A stretch of DNA of 64,000 nt, taken from contig CBDDHH010000004.1 in the NCBI GenBank assembly GCA_965228345.1, positions 2,620-66,619 on the forward strand. The letters run 5' to 3'. This document shows, piece by piece, positions 1,658-60,218 of the stretch (its first letter is position 1; each line of letters opens with the position of its first letter). The position numbers and the translations under genes were made by a program. A model generated the notes under the pieces. It did not search any database and was not told the origin of the DNA. It worked only from the letters and a program-made list of their open reading frames with translations. The DNA comes from Alphaproteobacteria bacterium (GTDB taxonomy: Bacteria; Pseudomonadota; Alphaproteobacteria; UBA7985).

Positions 1658-2318
1658 AGACCTGATTCTCAATAGGGAGATAAAAAACAGACGGACTTGT
1701 CCCTTAGTGCTTATCTCAGCAAATTTTTAAATTGATGTTTGCCAGAGCCGCGACATTCTTAGCAATCATGTTCTCATGTCGGTTTCCTCTGGAGATGTCA
1801 GAGAAAATGTTGAACTTTTTCATGCGTCCAATGCCATGCTCAACCTTCACGCGCATAGAGCTGAACCACTTATTGTAGTCTTTTTGTTCTTGGCTTAGAT
1901 TTTGGTTCTTGGATTTCTTTATCGGGACTTCGCAGTTGGTTCCTACATAAGCTAAGTCGCCCAAGAGCAGGGTATCTGGTGGCTTGTCCAGATGGCTTTG
2001 ATCATAAAGGGTTTTGTCGTGCTTGCGCCCCGGGTGAACGGGGCCACAAGCACGAATGCGCTTCTTATCATCGACGACAATTTGATGCTTATGAGTAAAG
2101 CGCTTCTTTTTCCCCGAGTAGATCTTCTTTCGGCCCTTCGATTTCTTGGGGCGCTGACAGGGGCGCTCGGTCCCATCGACAATCAGATATATGAGCTGCT
2201 CCTTATCATCCTCACTTAAAGCAAGCCTGCGCTCGGGCATCTGAAAATGGCCTGCCAATAGCTTGGTCATTGTATTGGTGGACTCGTAACGGTTTTGTTC
2301 CGCGCGGTTGAGCAGTTT

Positions 2319-3176
2319 TTATGCCGCCAAGCGTTCGAATGCTAGGGGGCTTTTCCCACCGTTTGCGCTGTGGCGTCGGCGTGGATTGTAGAAGCCGTTG
2401 ATATAGTCAAAGATGGCGCGGTGCGCAGACCTCCTGGTTGGCCAGATGTACCGCCATATTAGCTCGGCTTTGATGGTTTTGAAGAAGGCTTCGACAACGG
2501 CATTGTCGTAGCAGTTGCCCTTGCCACTCATGGAGGCCTTGAAGCCGTGTTTGGTGAGCAGATCGCGATAGTCATGGCTACAATATTGAGAACCACGGTC
2601 GCTATGATGGATGCAGCCCTCTGGTGGTTTTCGATGGGCGATGGCCATTTCCAAGGCACGGATCGCCAAGCCCTTTTTCAACCGATCACTGACCGCCCAA
2701 CCGATGACGCGGCGGGCGTAGAGGTCCATGACGACGGCGAGATACAGCCAACCTTCCTGTGTCCAGATGTAGGAGATATCTGAGGCCCACTTTTGATTTG
2801 GCCCTGAGCAGCTGAAGTCCCCATCCAGCAGATTGGGAGCTACGCCCAGAGAATGTGCACTGTCTGTAGTAACTTTGTATTTGTGCTTACGGGCCACACG
2901 TATGCCGTTGGCGGCCATGAGCCTACCAACGCGACGTTCACCTACACGCAAGCCCTCTTCTTTAAGCTCTTCGGTCATGCGGGCCCGCCCGTATGTGCCC
3001 ATACAGAGGCGATGCTGCTCTCTGATATGCGCCAGAACAACAAGGTCTGCGCGCTGATGCTGGCTCATGCCCCGCGCCCTCCAGGCACGCAGCCCCCGTG
3101 ATGTGACGCCGAAGAAGGTGCATAGATGCTCCTGGCTAAGGCAACCCTGATACTGGCTGATGTAGGCGAACTTCAT
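2319..3176 (-). CDS. IS3 transposase OrfB (rve DDE)
   Basis: WASDISY, HHSDRGSQY, DNAVVEAFF. Confidence 0.95.
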   Translation of the reverse strand: MKFAYISQYQGCLSQEHLCTFFGVTSRGLRAWRARGMSQHQRADLVVLAHIREQHRLCMGTYGRARMTEELKEEGLRVGERRVGRLMAANGIRVARKHKYKVTTDSAHSLGVAPNLLDGDFSCSGPNQKWASDISYIWTQEGWLYLAVVMDLYARRVIGWAVSDRLKKGLAIRALEMAIAHRKPPEGCIHHSDRGSQYCSHDYRDLLTKHGFKASMSGKGNCYDNAVVEAFFKTIKAELIWRYIWPTRRSAHRAIFDYINGFYNPRRRHSANGGKSPLAFERLAA

Positions 3177-3475
3177 TTGCTTATCTCCGCAAAGAACTGG
3201 GTGGCCTTTTTTAAGATCTCCCTCTCCTCCTTGAGATGGCGGTTCTCGATGCGAAGGCGTTCGTTTTCCTTGGCCAGTTCAGCAGCATCCGCAACTGCGC
3301 CATTATGCAGGGGCAAGGGGCTACCTTCTACCTCAGCACGGTATTTGCGAACCCAGGCATTGAGCGTCGAAAATCCAACACCCAAATCAGAGGCCAACTG
3401 CTTGCGCGTCAGCCCACTGCTTAAAGCCATGCGGACCGCATCGCGCTTGAAGTCTTCACTGTGTAATTTGCTCAT
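3173..3475 (-). CDS. IS3 transposase OrfA (HTH)
   Basis: EDFKRDAV...ILKKATQFFA; A-AAA-AAG slippery site; ATGA overlap with OrfB. Confidence 0.95.
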   Translation of the reverse strand: MSKLHSEDFKRDAVRMALSSGLTRKQLASDLGVGFSTLNAWVRKYRAEVEGSPLPLHNGAVADAAELAKENERLRIENRHLKEEREILKKATQFFAEISK

Positions 3476-3922
3476 GATTTTGTCTCCTTGTAATTGAGCT
3501 TAGGTGCTCAACCACGCAGAACAAAACCGTTACGAGTCCATGGCGGTTCGGATGCTCGTGCTATCTGAAACCGAAAATATCAAACCCAGAAACTCATGAT
3601 TGATGTAAGTCCGATAATAGATCAGGCATAAAAGCAGCATCTCCTCAAAGCTTAGCTTATGGCTTGGCCCGCCCCCAATCGCGCGTTGGCGATGGGGGCG
3701 AGATAGACGCTGATGGTTGTGAGCCTCCCAAAGCGGCAAAATCTTCTCTGAAATGTCGTCAAAATCGCTGACCCTTATCCCACTTAAGCGGAAAAACAGG
3801 CGCGGTTGCTTCTTAAGGATTTTGAAGGTTCTCATAAAAAGGCTAGAATCAGCCAAACCTGACTTCGACAAGACCTTGTTTGCACGCAAAAGCTCTTTTT
3901 CAGTTTATCGTGAAGCGGGTCT

Positions 3923-5916: not shown

Positions 5917-6106
5917 ATACCAGCGGCAATTATAAATGACTCTTATGATCGCTGGTATAAGGGCCGCGACTGCGGCCCCCGTAGCGGCCCCGAGATCGGC
6001 GGACACGCGCCTCGGGGTATAAGCGAAGGGGAGGCGAAACGCGAAGCGTTTCTGCCGTGAGACACGAAATGGTCATGAAAAGGTCACTTTTTATGACCGT
6101 TGGTAT
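5917..6106. repeat. Complete 190-bp modular repeat containing an EMPTY IS110 target site (6056-6068)
   Basis: ATACCAGCGG...GGTAT hairpin (5917-5958) + core + hairpin (6062-6106); minus strand reads TTCGTGT-CT-CACG. Confidence 0.92.
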
Positions 6107-26417: not shown

Positions 26418-26595
26418 AGGGCTCCCATAGGTGGAGCCCAAGCCGATTGGAACAATCGACCCTAAGGAATATCCTCGCCAATAACGGACTTATACCAACG
26501 GTCATAAAAAGTGACCTTTTCATGACCGTTTCGTGTCTTGTCTAATGGAATATGAGCGTTTTCTTGCCGCGATGCTAGATCATTTGTGGTAAGCT

Positions 26596-26773
26596 TGACG
26601 CGCCGATTTGGGGGTGGCCACCCCCAAATCGGCGGCGGGGCTGGATCGTTCGTGTCTAGGTGCTGCGTTGCAGGCACCGTTCGTGAGTTTGATCACCCCG
26701 TCTTTCCTACAAGTGGCCCGAATGGATACTAGGGAGCCAGCTGTGCGTCCCCTATGACAAGAAAGGGAACGCA
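26596..26773 (+). ncRNA. Putative IS110 bridge RNA (copy 3)
   Basis: LTG 26649-26657, RTG 26682-26687, LDG 26722-26730, RDG 26756-26761, each pair on opposite sides of an internal loop; ends approximate. Confidence 0.85.
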
Positions 26774-26776
26774 AAG

Positions 26777-27716
26777 ATGTCACAAGTTACCATCGGAATT
26801 GATGTTTCAAAAGCCCAATTCGATATTTTTGTGTCAAATGGCCAAAACCATAGCTGCAAGCCCAATACCCCTTGCGGGATTAAGGCTCTCATCAAGACCT
26901 TGAGCAAGCTTCCTGATTGCCTGGTCGTTTTTGAGGCAACTGGCTTCTATCACAGAGCCTTGGAACGGGGCCTTGCTCAAGCCCAAATCGCTTACGCAAA
27001 GGTCAACCCTTGGCAAGCCCGATGCTTTGCCAACAGCATCGGCCAACTCGCAAAAACCGATAAGGTCGATGCGAAAATCCTGGCACTCATGGGCCAAACC
27101 CTCCCCCTTGAGCCCACCAAGATACGCGATGAAGTCATTGAAACTCTTGGAGAATACCAAAGTCTTCATCAAGGGCTTGTGCAAACGCAAACGCAGTGGA
27201 GCAACAGGAAGAAAGTCGTTACCCATAAGGCCGCTGTGAGGCTTGCAACGAGAATGCTCAAGACCCTCGAAAAGGAGATCGAACAGCTAACCCTCAAGAC
27301 CAAGAAGCTCATCGAAGCCCATCCTGATCTCTTGGAACGCTTTAACATCTTGATCACAATCCCAGGGATTGCGGCACGAACAGCCATATCCCTTGTGACC
27401 AACATGCCAGAGCTTGGCACACTCAGTCAGAAAAAGATCGGCGCTCTAGCTGGCTTGGCTCCTATGCAATCCCAATCAGGAACGCTTAAGGGTGTCGCCC
27501 GTATCAAGGGGGGAAGAGCTCCTGTACGCAATGCTCTCTACATGCCTTCCTTGGTTGCCATGCGATACAATGAAGACCTAAAGGGTTTCTTAGAGCCGCC
27601 TTGTCGAAGCCGGAAAGCCGAAAAAAGTCGCCCTCATCGCCGTGATGCCTAAGCTGATCACGCTGGCAAATGCCCTCTTGCGGGAAAACAGAAAATGGTC
27701 ACAAATTGCCCCTTGA
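26777..27716 (+). pseudogene. IS110 DEDD/Ser recombinase with a +1 frameshift near 27590
   Basis: DEDD motifs, IPGIA, QSG serine; natural C-terminus SRLVEAGKPKKVALIAVMPKL...WSQIAP* lies in the +1 frame ending TGA 27716. Confidence 0.9.
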
Positions 27717-27971
27717 TTTATCATGGATACTCACGGCAGAAACGCTTCGCGTTTCGCCTCCCCTCCGCTTATACACCGAGGCGCGTGTCCGCCGATCTCG
27801 GGGCCGCGTGTTTTTGGCGCGGGCGTTCCCTGCGCCCTTCGGGCTTGGAGCCCGCTACGGGGGCCGCAGTCGCGGCTCTTATACCAGCGATCATAAGAGT
27901 CATTTATAATTGCCGCTGGTATTATACTGACTCCGCTAAAAATTGACATTTTTAGCGGAGTCGGTGTAATA

Positions 27972-57418: not shown

Positions 57419-58987
57419 TGTCTAGATAATGTAGTCACGAGATAAGATTTAGGGGATTCACATGGCGCGATAAGTGTGCGATTCCATGAGCTTAGGAGGT
57501 CTTTATGCCCAAAGCTCATCGTCAAGCTCATCGTCGCCATGACATCTCAGATAGAACCTGGAGCCTGTTAGAGCCCCATTTTGCCTGGCCGTAAGGGCAG
57601 TTGGGGTGGATTGGCCAAGGATAATCGCCTTTTCATCAATGCGGTCTTCTGGATCATGCGAACGGGTGCGCCTTGGCGTGATTTGCCCCCTGATCTTGGT
57701 CACTGGAGCAATACGCACCGCCGCTTTATCCGTTGGCGCGATAAGGGCGTATGGGAGAAGTTGCTAGAGGTGCTGATTGAAGAGCCAGATTATGAATGGC
57801 TCATCATTGATGCCAGCCATTGTAAGGTTCATCCCCATGCCGCAGGGGCCAGAGGAGGCAATCAGGAGATGAGCGCCACAAAAGGGGGCTCAATACCAAG
57901 ATACATTTGGCCGTGGATGCGTTTGGTCTGCCGATCAGAGCGCATATTACACATGGTGCCAGAGCTGACTGCACGCAAGCTGGGAAGCTTATCGAAGGAT
58001 TAAGCGCTGACTATCTGCTGGCCGATAGAGGATACGACACCCAAGACATCTTAGACCAGGCTAAATGCCAGGGCATGACGCCCGTCATCCCGCCCAAAAA
58101 GAACCGCAAGCATCAGCGCGAGTATGACAAAGACCTCTACAAAATCAGGCATCTGGTTGAAAATGCCTTCCTCCACCTCAAACGATGGAGGGGAATCGCA
58201 ACACCATATGCCAAAAACGCCGCCTCATTCATGGCAGCTATCCATATCAGGTGAATCGCTCTGTGGGCAAACATCTCGTGACTACACTATCTAGATCATT
58301 TGGGGTAAGCTTGACGCGCCGATTTGGGGGTGGCCACCCCCAAATCGGCGGCGGGGCTGGATCGTTCGTGTCTAGGTGCTGCGTTGCAGGCACCGTTCGT
58401 GAGTTTGATCACCCCGTCTTTCCTACAAGTGGCCCGAATGGATACTAGGGAGCCAGCTGTGCGTCCCGTATGACAAGAAAGGGAACGCAAAGATGTCTCA
58501 AGTTACCATCGGAATTGATGTTTCAAAAGCCCAATTCGATATTTTTGTGTCAAATGGCCAAAACCATAGCTGCAAGCCTAATACCCCTTGCGGGATTAAG
58601 GCTCTCATCAAGACCTTGAGCAAGCTTCCTGATTGCCTGGTCGTTTTTGAGGCAACTGGCTTCTATCACAGAGCCTTGGAACGTGGCCTTGCTCAAGCCC
58701 AAATCGCTTACGCAAAGGTCAACCCTTGGCAAGCGCGATGCTTTGCCAACAGCATCGGCCAACTCGCAAAAACCGATAAGGTCGATGCGAAAATCCTGGC
58801 ACTCATGGGCCAAACCCTCCCCCTTGAGCCCACCAAGATACGCGATGAAGTCATTGAAACTCTTGGAGAATACCAAAGTCTTCATCAAGGGCTTGTGCAA
58901 ACGCAAACGCAGTGGAGCAACAGGAAGAAAGTCGTTACCGATAAGGCCGCTGTGAGGCTTGCAACGAGAATGCTCAAGACCCTCGAA
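57419..58987 (+). mobile_element. IS110 copy 4, left end interrupted by IS5, recombinase (58493-) truncated by IS481
   Basis: Identity to copy 3 at 57419-57424 and 58292-58987; all four guides retained. Confidence 0.9.
57425..58291 (+). mobile_element. IS5-family (IS427-type) copy 2, degenerate
   Basis: Near-identical to 15178-16043; extra T near 57580 and premature TGA 58252. Confidence 0.93.
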
Positions 58988-58991
58988 CATG

Positions 58992-60218
58992 TGAATTAGT
59001 TCAGACTTGATCGGACACGCGGGGGGCCATTTCGTACGAAATGGCCCCCCGCGTTCGCCCCTTGAATGGGACGGGTTGTTGCGATTTGTTGGTGGTGCAA
59101 ACCTAACCAGCAAAATGAAAGAACAACCATGCTGCATACTGACAATAAAATCATTCAACACAAGACGGGATTGCTTAACCTAGCCCAAGAGCCGGGGAAC
59201 GTGTCCAAGGCCTGCCAGCTCATGGGTTACTCACGCGATACCTTCTACCGCTACAAAGCCGCTGCCGATGAGGGCGGAGTGGAGGTCCTTTTTGAGCGCA
59301 CCCGCCGCAAGCCTAACCTTGCCAACCGCGTTGATCTGGCCACTGAGGAAGCCGTCATCAAATGCGCCACAGACTTCCCCGCCTATGGCCAGGCTAGGAC
59401 ATCCAATGAACTGCGCAAGATCGGTGTCTTCGTCTCGCCCTCAGGCGTCCGCTCCATCTGGCTGCGCCATAACCTGGCCAACTTCAAGGATCGCCTGAAG
59501 GCCTTGGAAGCCAAAGTGGCACAGGACGGCATCATCCTTACTGAAACCCAGGTTCAGGCTTTGGAGAAGAAAAAGCTGGATGATGAAGCCACCGGCGAGA
59601 TTGAGACCGCCCACCCAGGCTATCTGGGCTCTCAGGATACCTTCTACGTCGGCACCTTGAAGGGTGTCGGGCGGGTCTATCAGCAGACCTATATCGACAC
59701 CTATTCCAAGGTCGCCCACGCCAAGCTCTACACCACCAAAACGCCGATCACGGCAGCCGATATGCTCAATGATCGGGTGCTGCCCTTTTATGAGGAACAT
59801 GAACTGCCCGTCCTGCGCATCATGACCGACACAGGAACCGAATATTGCGGGCGGGCTGATAAGCATGACTACCAGCTCTTCCTAACGATATCGACCATAC
59901 CAAAACCAAGGTCAAATCACCGCAGACCAACGGCATCTGCGAACGCTTTCACAAAACCATCTTGCAGGAGTTTTATCAGGTTGCTTTCCGCACAAAGGTC
60001 TATGCCAACATCGACACGCTGCAAGCCGATCTTGATGAATGGCTGCATCACTACAACACCCAGCGCACCCACCAGGGCAAAATGTGTTGCGGACGAACAC
60101 CCTTTGACACTAGGATCGAAGGTAAACAAATCTGGAAGGAAAAGTTCCTAAACCAAACTTAACCTGACAGACACCAGCGGCAAAACGCCAACTGTCAGAT
60201 CAGGTCGGAACTACTACA
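58992..60218 (+). mobile_element. IS481-family element; transposase 59129-60162 frameshifted near 59885
   Basis: IRs TGAATTAGTTCAGACTTGATCGGACA / TGTAGTAGTTCCGACCTGATCTGACA (21/26); NVSKACQLMGYSRDTFYRY, QDTFYVG, TDTGTEY. Confidence 0.9.

What the first reader, a model, noticed from the sequence alone, without database searches (positions are those of the whole stretch)
26530..27735. IS110 bridge-RNA recombinase whose full target/donor program can be read from its left end
Seen: the junctions are TTCGTGT-CT|TGTC (left) and ATGGATA-CT|CACG (right), so the target is TTCGTGT-CT-CACG and the circular donor is ATGGATA-CT-TGTC. The non-coding left end holds a 34-bp palindrome followed by two stem-closed internal loops. 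Loop 1 has TTCGTGTCT (26649-57, 9/9 to left target plus core) opposite CGTGAG (26682-87, reverse complement of CTCACG, 6/6). Loop 2 has ATGGATACT (26722-30, 9/9 to left donor plus core) opposite GACAAG (26756-61, reverse complement of CTTGTC, 6/6). All four copies in the window have the same left junction and unchanged guides. One substitution in copy 1 (GCACC>GCATC) keeps the stem through a G-U pair. Established: this is the LTG/RTG/LDG/RDG, CT-core architecture of IS621-type IS110 bridge recombinases. Inference: this is a new ortholog with its own specificity and 6-nt right guides, so it is a candidate programmable recombinase. The class is known; this member and its target may not be.
Basis: partly seen in the sequence, partly recalled or inferred. 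Interest (0 to 1): 0.9.

Follow-up and report, generated by a model that had tools for sequence, protein, structure and literature searches.

The report
Bridge-RNA IS110 element, frameshifted copy
This is a jumping gene of the known IS110 "bridge RNA" type whose own RNA spells out both where it inserts and how it recognises itself, and this copy has a broken enzyme gene while intact sister copies sit elsewhere in the same genome.

Summary
Window 26539-27731 is a 1193-bp IS110-family element between CT cores, inserted in a dispersed palindromic repeat. An uninterrupted copy of that repeat lies at window 5991-6098. The protein has both IS110 domains and matches NCBIfam "IS110 family RNA-guided transposase" and the solved IS621 and ISCro4 recombinases.

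A 64-sequence alignment of the left ends gives the IS621-type fold: a 5' hairpin and two stem-closed internal loops. 26 of 30 pairs show compensatory changes. In about 60 relatives the target-loop guides track their own flanks. A sister genome's copy changes one base in both the guide and the target. Handshake bases also fit.

The genome holds 29 full-length copies: 9 intact (312 aa) and 20, this one included, sharing one frameshift. Site occupancy falls from 49% at perfect guide matches to 3% at three mismatches.

Corrections: only three of the four window copies keep a left junction. Six-nucleotide right guides are ordinary. Single-sequence folding does not show the donor loop. Expression, circles and reprogrammability are untested. 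It is a new member of a known kind.

The parts
26530..26538 (+). Left target (TTCGTGT) plus CT core, part of a dispersed palindromic repeat
   Evidence: Identical 9-mer at 40 of 52 left junctions genome-wide. An empty paralogue lies at window 5991-6098.
26539..27731 (+). IS110-family insertion sequence, 1193 bp (right CT core at 27730-31 counted with the element)
   Evidence: 29 full-length copies at 98.7-100% identity in the genome. Boundaries set by the empty site.
26601..26634 (+). 5' stem-loop of the bridge RNA (34-bp palindrome)
   Evidence: All 7 of the pairs predicted in this hairpin in the 64-sequence alignment (helices 1 and 2) show compensatory changes.
26637..26699 (+). Target-binding loop module: outer stem 26637-40/26696-99 and 26644-47/26691-94, LTG 26649-57, hairpin 26659-78, RTG 26682-87 (U26681 can wobble-pair with target G14), handshake bases 26688-89
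   Evidence: LTG and RTG track the flanks in relatives. Handshake check.
26702..26776 (+). Donor-binding loop module: outer helix 26702-07/26771-76, inner 3-bp helix 26717-19/26765-67, LDG 26722-30, hairpin 26732-51, RDG 26756-61, handshake bases 26762-63
   Evidence: The outer helix is read by eye from alignment A6; it is perfect only with the majority allele G at 26772, where the window copy has C.
26777..27718 (+). Recombinase gene, broken. The open frame 26777-27652 gives 291 aa. The last ~40 codons continue in another frame to the original stop at 27716-18.
   Evidence: Pfam PF01548 + PF02371. The shared lesion sits at 27590-27595 compared with intact 312-aa copies.
27714..27731 (+). Right end: TTGATT at 27714-19 (homologous position of the relatives' -35 box), left donor ATGGATA 27723-29, CT core 27730-31
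27732..27736 (+). Right target CACG(G)
   Evidence: CACGG follows the right end at 42 of 44 listed right ends, and CAAGG at one more.
5991..6098 (-). Uninterrupted (empty) copy of the target repeat
   Evidence: the left-flank and right-flank matches abut and share the CT.

Best explanation
Window 26539-27731 is a copy of an IS110-group (IS621-type) insertion sequence.

Its 238-nt non-coding left end encodes a bridge RNA of about 175-180 nt. The RNA has a 5' hairpin, a target-binding loop and a donor-binding loop. The target-loop guides pair with the two strands of TTCGTGT-CT-CACG(G), which lies at the apex of a dispersed palindromic repeat. The donor-loop guides pair with ATGGATA-CT-TGTC, the joined right and left ends of the excised element.

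A DEDD/serine recombinase then exchanges strands at the CT core, inserting the element without duplication.

Shown here: element boundaries, protein family, RNA fold by covariation, guide complementarity, guide-flank covariation in relatives, and target preference in the genome.

Inferred from IS621 work: the RNA is made, it binds the recombinase, a circular or single-stranded circle intermediate exists, and specificity is reprogrammable.

This particular copy carries a frameshift that removes the conserved last ~40 residues. It most likely cannot make active enzyme. It would move only with recombinase supplied by one of the 9 intact copies, while still supplying its own unchanged bridge RNA and ends.
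For: Protein:
- PF01548 (7e-19) and PF02371 (1e-14).
- NCBIfam NF033542 'IS110 family RNA-guided transposase', 192 bits against a cut-off of 140.
- Near full-length matches to the solved ISCro4 (1.3e-32) and IS621 (9.8e-30) recombinases.
- E53, D95, D98 and S234 are invariant in alignments A3 and A4. D9 is invariant in the 17-sequence alignment A4 and is kept in 6 of the 7 sequences of A3; the seventh was started too late by my ORF call.

Geometry:
- No inverted repeats or duplication beyond one CT.
- Non-coding left end 238 nt against 13 nt on the right, as in the IS110 group (criterion).

RNA fold:
- RNAalifold on 64 left ends gives a 5' hairpin plus two stem-closed loops with all four guides unpaired. 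26 of 30 pairs have compensatory changes.
- 96.5% of cells are paired against 83.4% in shuffles, 0 of 500 shuffles reach any measure, and slid controls give 36-55%.

Guides:
- 9/9, 6/6, 9/9 and 6/6 matches with the published strand polarity.
- All four words together occurred in 0 of 200,000 shuffles.
- The sister-genome element has LTG ATTGTGTCT next to left flank TTTGTGTCT, so a C>T change appears in both guide and target.
- In relatives at 43-50% protein identity, the LTG matches its own left flank at a mean of 6.97/9 (n=64) against 4.70 for non-cognate pairs. Matches of 8 or more: 26 of 64 against 44 of 4010.
- The RTG matches its own right flank at 6 or more of 7 in 53 of 62, against 696 of 3564.

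Handshake bases (rule from PMC11208158):
- U26688 is complementary to donor A7 and A26762 to target T7.
- Across the set, 54 of 64 are complementary where 36 are expected by chance. All 12 targets with T at position 7 have A.

Genome census:
- 40 of 52 left junctions are the perfect TTCGTGT.
- Occupancy is 40/82 at 0 mismatches, 4/23 at 1, 5/73 at 2, 3/86 at 3, and 0/14 at 4 or more. Fisher test of 0 against the rest: odds ratio 14.6, p=2e-15. Fisher test of 0 against 1: p=0.008.
- Distal flanks are unique in all but 3 pairs.

Frameshift:
- 20 of 29 full-length copies share +T at 27590, C>G at 27593 and A>G at 27595. The other 9 encode 312 aa.
Against: - Single-sequence folding does not give the donor loop as an internal loop. 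It also pairs six LTG bases with the RTG: unpaired probabilities are 0.04-0.27 for LTG positions 1-6 and 0.02-0.31 across the RTG. Forcing all four guides open costs 2.8 kcal/mol. This follows from the palindromic target, but it is a real competing fold.
- No Rfam family matched at gathering score or at E up to 10.
- The junction promoter that 50 of 56 relatives have (TTGAyC, 17 nt, TATGAy) is degraded here. The -10 position reads TAATGG. The only consensus promoter hit, 27696-27724, is no more than chance gives.
- Within the genome no guide change is matched by an end change. G26724A in two copies has no partner change in their right ends.
- 12 of 52 left junctions differ from the guide at 1-3 positions.
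- The occupancy gradient is confounded. The mismatch classes largely coincide with three repeat subfamilies that also differ in a hairpin just 5' of the target.
- The structure tested was predicted from the same alignment.
Confidence: 0.9

Rival explanations
1. The internal 9-mers and 6-mers are protein-binding subterminal repeats on DNA (the older view of IS110 ends), not RNA guides. Under this view the left end is only a regulatory leader.
For: The words are also DNA copies of the ends and flanks. No expression data exist for this element (one search listed no RNA run).
Against: The left-loop words match flanking host DNA, which is not part of the element, and they change with it across 64 relatives. 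The stems around them keep pairing through compensatory changes in 26 of 30 pairs, which selects for an RNA or single-strand fold. The strand polarity is the published RNA-DNA pattern.
Confidence: 0.03
2. The family is a fossil in this genome: all movement is past, and the present copies (this one included) are inert. The spread of the shared frameshift reflects gene conversion between resident copies rather than mobilisation in trans.
For: - 20 of 29 full-length copies are frameshifted.
- Many further copies are truncated or interrupted by other insertion sequences.
- Polymorphisms such as 26752, 26772 and 26968 are shared between the intact and frameshifted classes, as expected from recombination between copies.
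- The junction -10 box is poor.
- No circle joint appeared in the contigs laid. Contigs drop rare forms, so this is not evidence either way.
Against: - Nine copies keep a full 312-aa frame with all catalytic residues.
- Copies are 98.7-100% identical, and several left ends are identical over 257 nt.
- 42 perfect empty targets remain.
- The frameshifted copies sit at 20 different sites with unique distal flanks. So either they moved after the lesion arose or conversion hit many copies.
Confidence: 0.25
3. Target choice is set mainly by the repeat's own hairpin structure or subfamily identity, recognised by the protein. Left-guide pairing would play only a minor part.
For: - The three main repeat subfamilies differ both in the 7-nt left target and in the hairpin immediately 5' of it.
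- A preprint on ISPpu10 reports that a target stem-loop adds specificity beyond base pairing (10.64898/2026.03.19.712850; abstract and outline only).
Against: - Sites that differ from the perfect class by a single LT mismatch are filled 4 of 23, against 40 of 82 for perfect sites (p=0.008). The example rows printed suggest most keep the perfect class's 5' hairpin, but subfamily membership of these 23 sites was not tallied.
- Across relatives with unrelated targets, the LTG and RTG follow the flanks.
Confidence: 0.1

Closest known systems
IS621 of Escherichia coli (bridge recombinase with 177-nt bridge RNA; Durrant et al. 2024, PMC11208160; Hiraizumi et al. 2024, PMC11208158)
   Same: - Two-domain DEDD/serine recombinase (PDB 8wt6 matched at 9.8e-30 over residues 6-303).
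- CT core.
- RNA in the long left end.
- 5' hairpin plus target and donor loops, each made of stem, 9-nt left guide, hairpin and right guide.
- Core included in all four pairings.
- Handshake bases next to the right guides.
- A repetitive palindromic target.
   Different: - Distant protein (E about 1e-30, not a close orthologue).
- Own target (TTCGTGT-CT-CACGG) and donor (ATGGATA-CT-TGTC).
- The donor loop is closed by a 3-bp helix plus a separate outer helix that reaches the start codon, with a 13-nt linker before the left donor guide. IS621 has a 2-nt linker there.
- Only 13 nt of non-coding right end.
- The junction promoter is not recognisable in this copy.
ISCro4 transposase (PDB 9t56)
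   Same: Best solved-structure match: 1.3e-32 over residues 6-303 against 11-315.
   Different: Only the protein was compared. I did not see its RNA or target. The name is the depositor's.
Unnamed alphaproteobacterial/metagenomic IS110 subfamily with ends TGTCTTATGA...ACGGATACT (loci L036, L043, L071-L150; proteins named only 'IS110 family transposase', e.g. in Aquibaculum, Chelativorans, Sphingobium, Agrobacterium)
   Same: - Same RNA architecture column by column.
- Same right donor guide GACAAG.
- Near-identical donor (ACGGATA against ATGGATA).
- Same conserved linkers.
- 43-50% protein identity.
   Different: - The window element and its sister-genome copy have a left end about 36 nt longer and a longer donor-loop hairpin.
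- They have U at the last core position of both left guides, whereas the relatives' LDG mostly ends in C, G or A.
- They have a diverged -10 box.
- The nearest proteins outside the genus are 72% and 59-63% identical and unnamed.
ISPpu9 / ISPpu10 of Pseudomonas putida (IS110 elements that target REP or stem-loop repeats)
   Same: Insertion into many copies of one dispersed palindromic intergenic repeat. A hairpin lies just 5' of the paired target (abstracts).
   Different: No sequence comparison was made here. Whether the hairpin contributes to recognition in this element is untested.

Membership tests
IS110 family, IS110 group (IS621-type bridge-RNA insertion sequences) | [quoted passage not shown] | tested here: met
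   (7e-19 and 1e-14, both above the curated cut-offs); NF033542 at 192 bits against 140; IS621 and ISCro4 structures matched.
IS110 family, IS110 group (IS621-type bridge-RNA insertion sequences) | Catalytic D, E, D, D and S residues present | tested here: met
   E53, D95, D98 and S234 are invariant in alignments A3 and A4. D9 is invariant in A4 (17 sequences) and present in 6 of 7 in A3. Equating them with IS621 D11, E60, D102, D105 and S241 is by motif position and is inferred. The window copy keeps them but loses the last ~40 residues.
IS110 family, IS110 group (IS621-type bridge-RNA insertion sequences) | No terminal inverted repeats; insertion at a short core shared by target and donor (CT); no longer duplication | tested here: met
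   The empty site against the filled site shares one CT. 48 left and 43 right cognate junctions.
IS110 family, IS110 group (IS621-type bridge-RNA insertion sequences) | Non-coding left end much longer than the right end, with the RNA in the left end (the IS1111 group has the reverse) | tested here: met
   238 nt against 13 nt. The criterion comes from PMC11208160.
IS110 family, IS110 group (IS621-type bridge-RNA insertion sequences) | RNA fold: two internal loops, each closed by a stem and capped by a hairpin | tested here: met
   RNAalifold on 64 sequences and pair counts. Single-sequence folding shows the target loop only and pairs part of the LTG with the RTG.
IS110 family, IS110 group (IS621-type bridge-RNA insertion sequences) | Target loop: the 5' side reads as the top strand of left target plus core; the 3' side is complementary to core plus right target | tested here: met
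   9/9 and 6/6 matches, plus a G-U at position 14. Covariation in the sister genome and in 64 and 62 relatives.
IS110 family, IS110 group (IS621-type bridge-RNA insertion sequences) | Donor loop: the same pattern against the joined right end, core and left end | tested here: met
   9/9 and 6/6 matches. The ends are invariant at 43 right ends and nearly so at left ends. In relatives the LDG matches its right end at 7-9 of 9 in 60 of 62.
IS110 family, IS110 group (IS621-type bridge-RNA insertion sequences) | Handshake guides: the base after each right guide pairs with position 7 of the non-cognate DNA, not of the cognate DNA | tested here: met
   U26688 against donor A7 (target T7 would not pair). 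A26762 against target T7 (donor A7 would not pair). 54 of 64 and 59 of 60 in the set. The second handshake base does not pair in either loop.
IS110 family, IS110 group (IS621-type bridge-RNA insertion sequences) | Promoter rebuilt across the RE-LE junction of the excised form | tested here: inconclusive
   50 of 56 relatives have TTGAyC, 17 nt, TATGAy split across the junction. Here the -35 box TTGATT is kept but the -10 position is TAATGG. Consensus scans found nothing above chance.
IS110 family, IS110 group (IS621-type bridge-RNA insertion sequences) | RNA expressed and bound by the recombinase; circular intermediate; specificity changed by changing the guides | not testable with these tools
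   No RNA run was listed, and only contigs of one study could be laid.
Rfam families | Match to a curated covariance model | tested here: not met
   There was no family hit on the element at gathering score. At E up to 10 there were only chance-level hits to unrelated families.

The most novel reading that the evidence does not exclude
A recombinase-dead lineage that keeps a complete bridge RNA and donor ends has out-multiplied its autonomous parent (20 against 9 full-length copies), riding on recombinase made in trans. That would make it a natural non-autonomous parasite of an RNA-guided insertion sequence. Separately, the roughly 280 paralogous target sites with graded left-target mismatches give a natural mismatch-tolerance curve for a bridge recombinase.
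Probability: 0.4. Interest if true: 0.5.

Novelty: new member of a known kind. Interest (0 to 1): 0.35.

Why it matters
It adds one fully readable orthologue, with its own 14-nt target and donor, to a class already known to be large. NCBI already has a model that would name the protein 'RNA-guided transposase'.

Its practical value is as a clean natural data set:
- 52 left junctions and 226 empty paralogous sites in one 2.45-Mb genome.
- A sister genome with a single matched guide/target change.
- Coexisting intact and frameshifted lineages.

These allow three questions to be asked about natural populations: how much mismatch is tolerated, whether a target hairpin contributes to recognition, and whether copies are mobilised in trans. 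As an editing tool it is one candidate among thousands, and it is untested.

Tried and rejected
- Rfam: no family on the element at gathering score. Only chance-level hits at E up to 10.
- Single-sequence folding: z = -3.97. It does not give the donor loop as an internal loop. I rely on comparative folding instead.
- Promoter scans: one consensus site inside the right end (27696-27724), no more than shuffles give. No junction-spanning site passed my threshold.
- Within-genome covariation of guides with ends: none. The guides are nearly invariant, and the two variant bases have no partner change.
- MAFFT alignment of five left ends with a hand-drawn structure: the two distant sequences were misaligned. 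I replaced it with the 64-sequence alignment.
- My first automatic left-end placement by alignment column was wrong for the relatives. I redid it with a left-end motif search. That dropped 12 of 77 loci for which no left-end motif was found. One search skipped one further locus with an insertion in the donor loop (L107) and scored only those with a right end and 7 nt of flank, 62 in all.
- My first -35 offset was wrong and was corrected.
- Sequencing runs: 4 runs of one study, all Logan contigs, and no RNA holder listed. The 'skips 1193/1194' joints are what other, empty copies of the repeat would give. No RE-to-LE 'goes back' joint was listed. Contigs cannot show rare circles, so this says nothing either way.
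- The plasmid collection gave only relatives at 47% identity or less, named 'IS110 family transposase'. No ISfinder name could be obtained with these tools.
- I did not search the papers for this exact element. Supplementary tables of PMC11208160, which list thousands of orthologues, were closed and may include relatives.
This call repeats it with that field added.
Full report
WHAT IS THERE. BLAST of the region against the window shows that the flanks are themselves repeated. At 6098-5991 (minus strand) the left flank and the right flank abut and share a single CT. That is an empty copy of the target. It fixes the element as 26539-27731 (1193 bp), inserted at a CT core with no other duplication. 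The 34-bp palindrome is 26601-26634.

The window holds one full copy and three partial ones: 839-1657, 4217-3922 on the minus strand, and 58291-58987. Only three keep a left junction and only one keeps a right end, so 'all four copies have the same left junction' is slightly overstated. All four do keep the four guide words unchanged. The partial copies are cut by other insertion sequences.

PROTEIN. The 291-aa frame 26777-27652 carries PF01548 and PF02371. The intact 312-aa version from another copy scores 192 bits on NCBIfam NF033542, 'IS110 family RNA-guided transposase', against a cut-off of 140. It matches the solved ISCro4 (1.3e-32) and IS621 (9.8e-30) recombinases over residues 6-303. 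E53, D95, D98 and S234 are invariant among relatives in both alignments. D9 is invariant in the 17-sequence alignment A4 and is kept in 6 of the 7 sequences of A3; the seventh was started too late by my ORF call.

The nearest proteins outside the genus are unnamed, at 72% and 59-63% identity. Named ones ('IS110 family transposase') are about 48% or less.

GENOME-WIDE COPIES. The 2.45-Mb assembly (4 contigs) has 29 full-length copies at 98.7-100% identity, plus many fragments. Nine are 1192 bp and encode 312 aa. Twenty, the window copy included, are 1193 bp and share one lesion: +T at 27590, C>G at 27593 and A>G at 27595. This lesion replaces the conserved C-terminal ~40 residues.

The lesion has a single origin. 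Its presence at 20 sites with unique distal flanks means one of two things: mobilisation by enzyme made in trans, or gene conversion among copies. Polymorphisms shared between the two classes show that some recombination does occur. I could not separate the two.

THE RNA. Single-sequence folding of 26596-26776 gives -82.3 kcal/mol (z = -3.97). It shows the 5' hairpin and the target loop's stems, but it pairs six LTG bases with the RTG and does not draw the donor loop as an internal loop. The LTG-RTG pairing exists because the target is itself a palindrome (CGTG-TCT-CACG). Opening all four guides costs 2.8 kcal/mol.

Comparative evidence decides the matter. I collected a sister-genome element at 90% nucleotide identity and 80 metagenome loci at 43-50% protein identity. 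I aligned 64 left ends.

RNAalifold returns the 5' hairpin, a two-part outer stem and a hairpin for the target loop, and a 3-bp closing helix and a hairpin for the donor loop. All four guides are unpaired. 26 of 30 pairs show compensatory changes. Mapped to the window, these are 26637-40/26696-99, 26644-47/26691-94, 26659-62/26675-78, 26717-19/26765-67 and 26732-35/26748-51.

Pair counting gives 96.5% of cells paired against 83.4% in shuffles. None of 500 shuffles reaches any of the five measures. Slid controls give 36-55%. The structure was predicted on the same alignment, which favours it somewhat.

By eye in alignment A6 there is a further outer helix, CUUUCC 26702-07 with GGAAAG 26771-76. 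It co-varies in relatives (for example UCUUCGC with GCGAAGA, and CCUUUCG with CGAAAGG). In this genome it is perfect only with the majority allele G at 26772; the window copy has C. I did not count this helix formally.

GUIDES. The published rule (PMC11208160, passages read) has three parts. [quoted passage not shown] The 3' side pairs with the top strand for 4-7 nt. The core is included in all four pairings.

Here the matches are:
- LTG 26649-57 equals left target plus core, 9/9.
- RTG 26682-87 is the reverse complement of core plus CACG, 6/6. U26681 can wobble-pair with the next G.
- LDG 26722-30 equals the last 9 nt of the element, 9/9.
- RDG 26756-61 is the reverse complement of core plus TGTC, 6/6.

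None of 200,000 shuffles of the left end held all four words.

The sister genome gives a matched change: LTG ATTGTGTCT beside left flank TTTGTGTCT, against TTCGTGTCT beside TTCGTGTCT here.

In the relatives the donor side is conserved (ends TGTCTTATGA...ACGGATACT, RDG GACAAG) while the target loop varies and follows its own flanks:
- LTG against its own left flank: mean 6.97 of 9 (n=64), against 4.70 for non-cognate pairs. Matches of 8 or more: 26 of 64 against 44 of 4010.
- RTG against its own right flank: 6 or more of 7 in 53 of 62, against 696 of 3564. Many distinct compensated targets appear, such as CTACGCC/GGCGUAG, CTGTCGC/GCGACAG and CTTTTTG/CAAAAAG.

Of the 77 left ends, 12 were dropped before these counts because no left-end motif was found. 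One more (L107) was skipped because of an insertion in its donor loop.

HANDSHAKE BASES. The IS621 structures show that the bases just 3' of each right guide pair with positions 6-7 of the non-cognate DNA after strand exchange, and must not pair with the cognate DNA (PMC11208158). Here U26688 pairs with donor A7 and not with target T7. A26762 pairs with target T7 and not with donor A7.

Across the set, the donor-loop base is complementary to target position 7 in 54 of 64, where 36 are expected if the two were independent. All 12 targets with T at position 7 have A. The target-loop base is U opposite donor A7 in 59 of 60. The second handshake base does not pair in either loop here.

TARGET AND SPECIFICITY. 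The target lies at the apex of a dispersed repeat. The right half of that repeat (CT-CACGGCAGAAACGCTTCGCGTTTCG...) is shared by about 270 copies. Its left half comes in three main forms with different hairpins and different 7-nt left targets: TTCGTGT, TTTATGT and GTTTTGT.

Occupancy falls with the number of mismatches to the LTG:
- 0 mismatches: 40 of 82 filled.
- 1 mismatch: 4 of 23.
- 2 mismatches: 5 of 73.
- 3 mismatches: 3 of 86.
- 4 or more: 0 of 14.

The Fisher test of 0 against the rest gives an odds ratio of 14.6, p=2e-15. Zero against one mismatch gives p=0.008. The example rows printed suggest that most one-mismatch sites keep the perfect class's 5' hairpin, but I did not tally this. 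The three positions next to the core (TGT) and the right target are almost invariant at filled sites.

Two caveats apply. Some mismatches may have arisen after insertion. And across subfamilies the 5' hairpin differs too, which a preprint on ISPpu10 reports can matter (abstract only).

PROMOTER AND EXPRESSION. In 50 of 56 relatives a sigma-70-like promoter is split across the joined ends: TTGAyC in the right end, 17 nt, TATGAy in the left end. That matches the published idea that the excised form switches the RNA on. Here the -35 box is kept (TTGATT, 27714-19) but the -10 position reads TAATGG. Generic scans find nothing above chance.

No RNA run exists for this organism in the index. The four DNA runs are contigs of one study and show no circle joint, which says nothing either way.

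VERDICT. This is a bona fide IS621-type bridge-RNA element of the IS110 group, with its own target and donor. It belongs to a widespread, unnamed subfamily whose donor side is conserved and whose target loop is the variable part. It is a new member of a known kind.

- The comparative proof of the fold.
- The matched guide/target change in a sister genome.
- The handshake bases.
- The natural mismatch-occupancy curve.
- The finding that the frameshifted form is the majority lineage beside nine intact copies.

Expression, circle formation, activity of either protein form and reprogrammability remain untested.

Noticed in passing
window 1716-3889 and 57581-60151: Other insertion-sequence families cut the IS110 copies in the window: an IS3-like two-ORF element, DDE ORFs that look IS5/IS4-like, and an rve-type integrase ORF. 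These labels are judged from the ORF translations by eye; no family search was run. The genome looks heavily loaded with nested insertion sequences.
   Followed up: partly
window 26490-26538 and 27732-27960; genome-wide about 270 copies: The target is a dispersed repeat with a constant right half and three main left-half forms. Each form has its own hairpin around an AAAA(A/T)TGAC-like loop. The nature and origin of the repeat (REP-like or MITE-like) were not worked out.
   Followed up: partly
window 26764-26779: The 3' strands of both donor-loop closing helices (GGG 26765-67 and GGAAAG 26771-76) lie in the 15 nt before the ATG, where the ribosome-binding site must be. Folding of the bridge RNA could therefore mask translation of the recombinase. 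This is inference only.
   Followed up: no
loci L071-L150: In most relatives the last core-position base of the left donor guide is not U (ACGGATAC followed by C, G or A, against right end ACGGATACT). Many left target guides end GCG or GCA where the flank ends GCT. The window element has U in both.
   Followed up: partly
L027 3100-4152 (G000:C4, beside an intact copy): A 350-aa ORF made of tandem TPR-like repeats (LNNLA..L..QG.Y.QAEPLYREALELRERLLGKEHP) lies next to one intact IS copy.
   Followed up: no
L117 right flank: In one metagenome locus the right end is followed directly by CTTGTCTT, the start of another copy's left end. This is either a tandem head-to-tail pair or a junction-like arrangement.
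   Followed up: no
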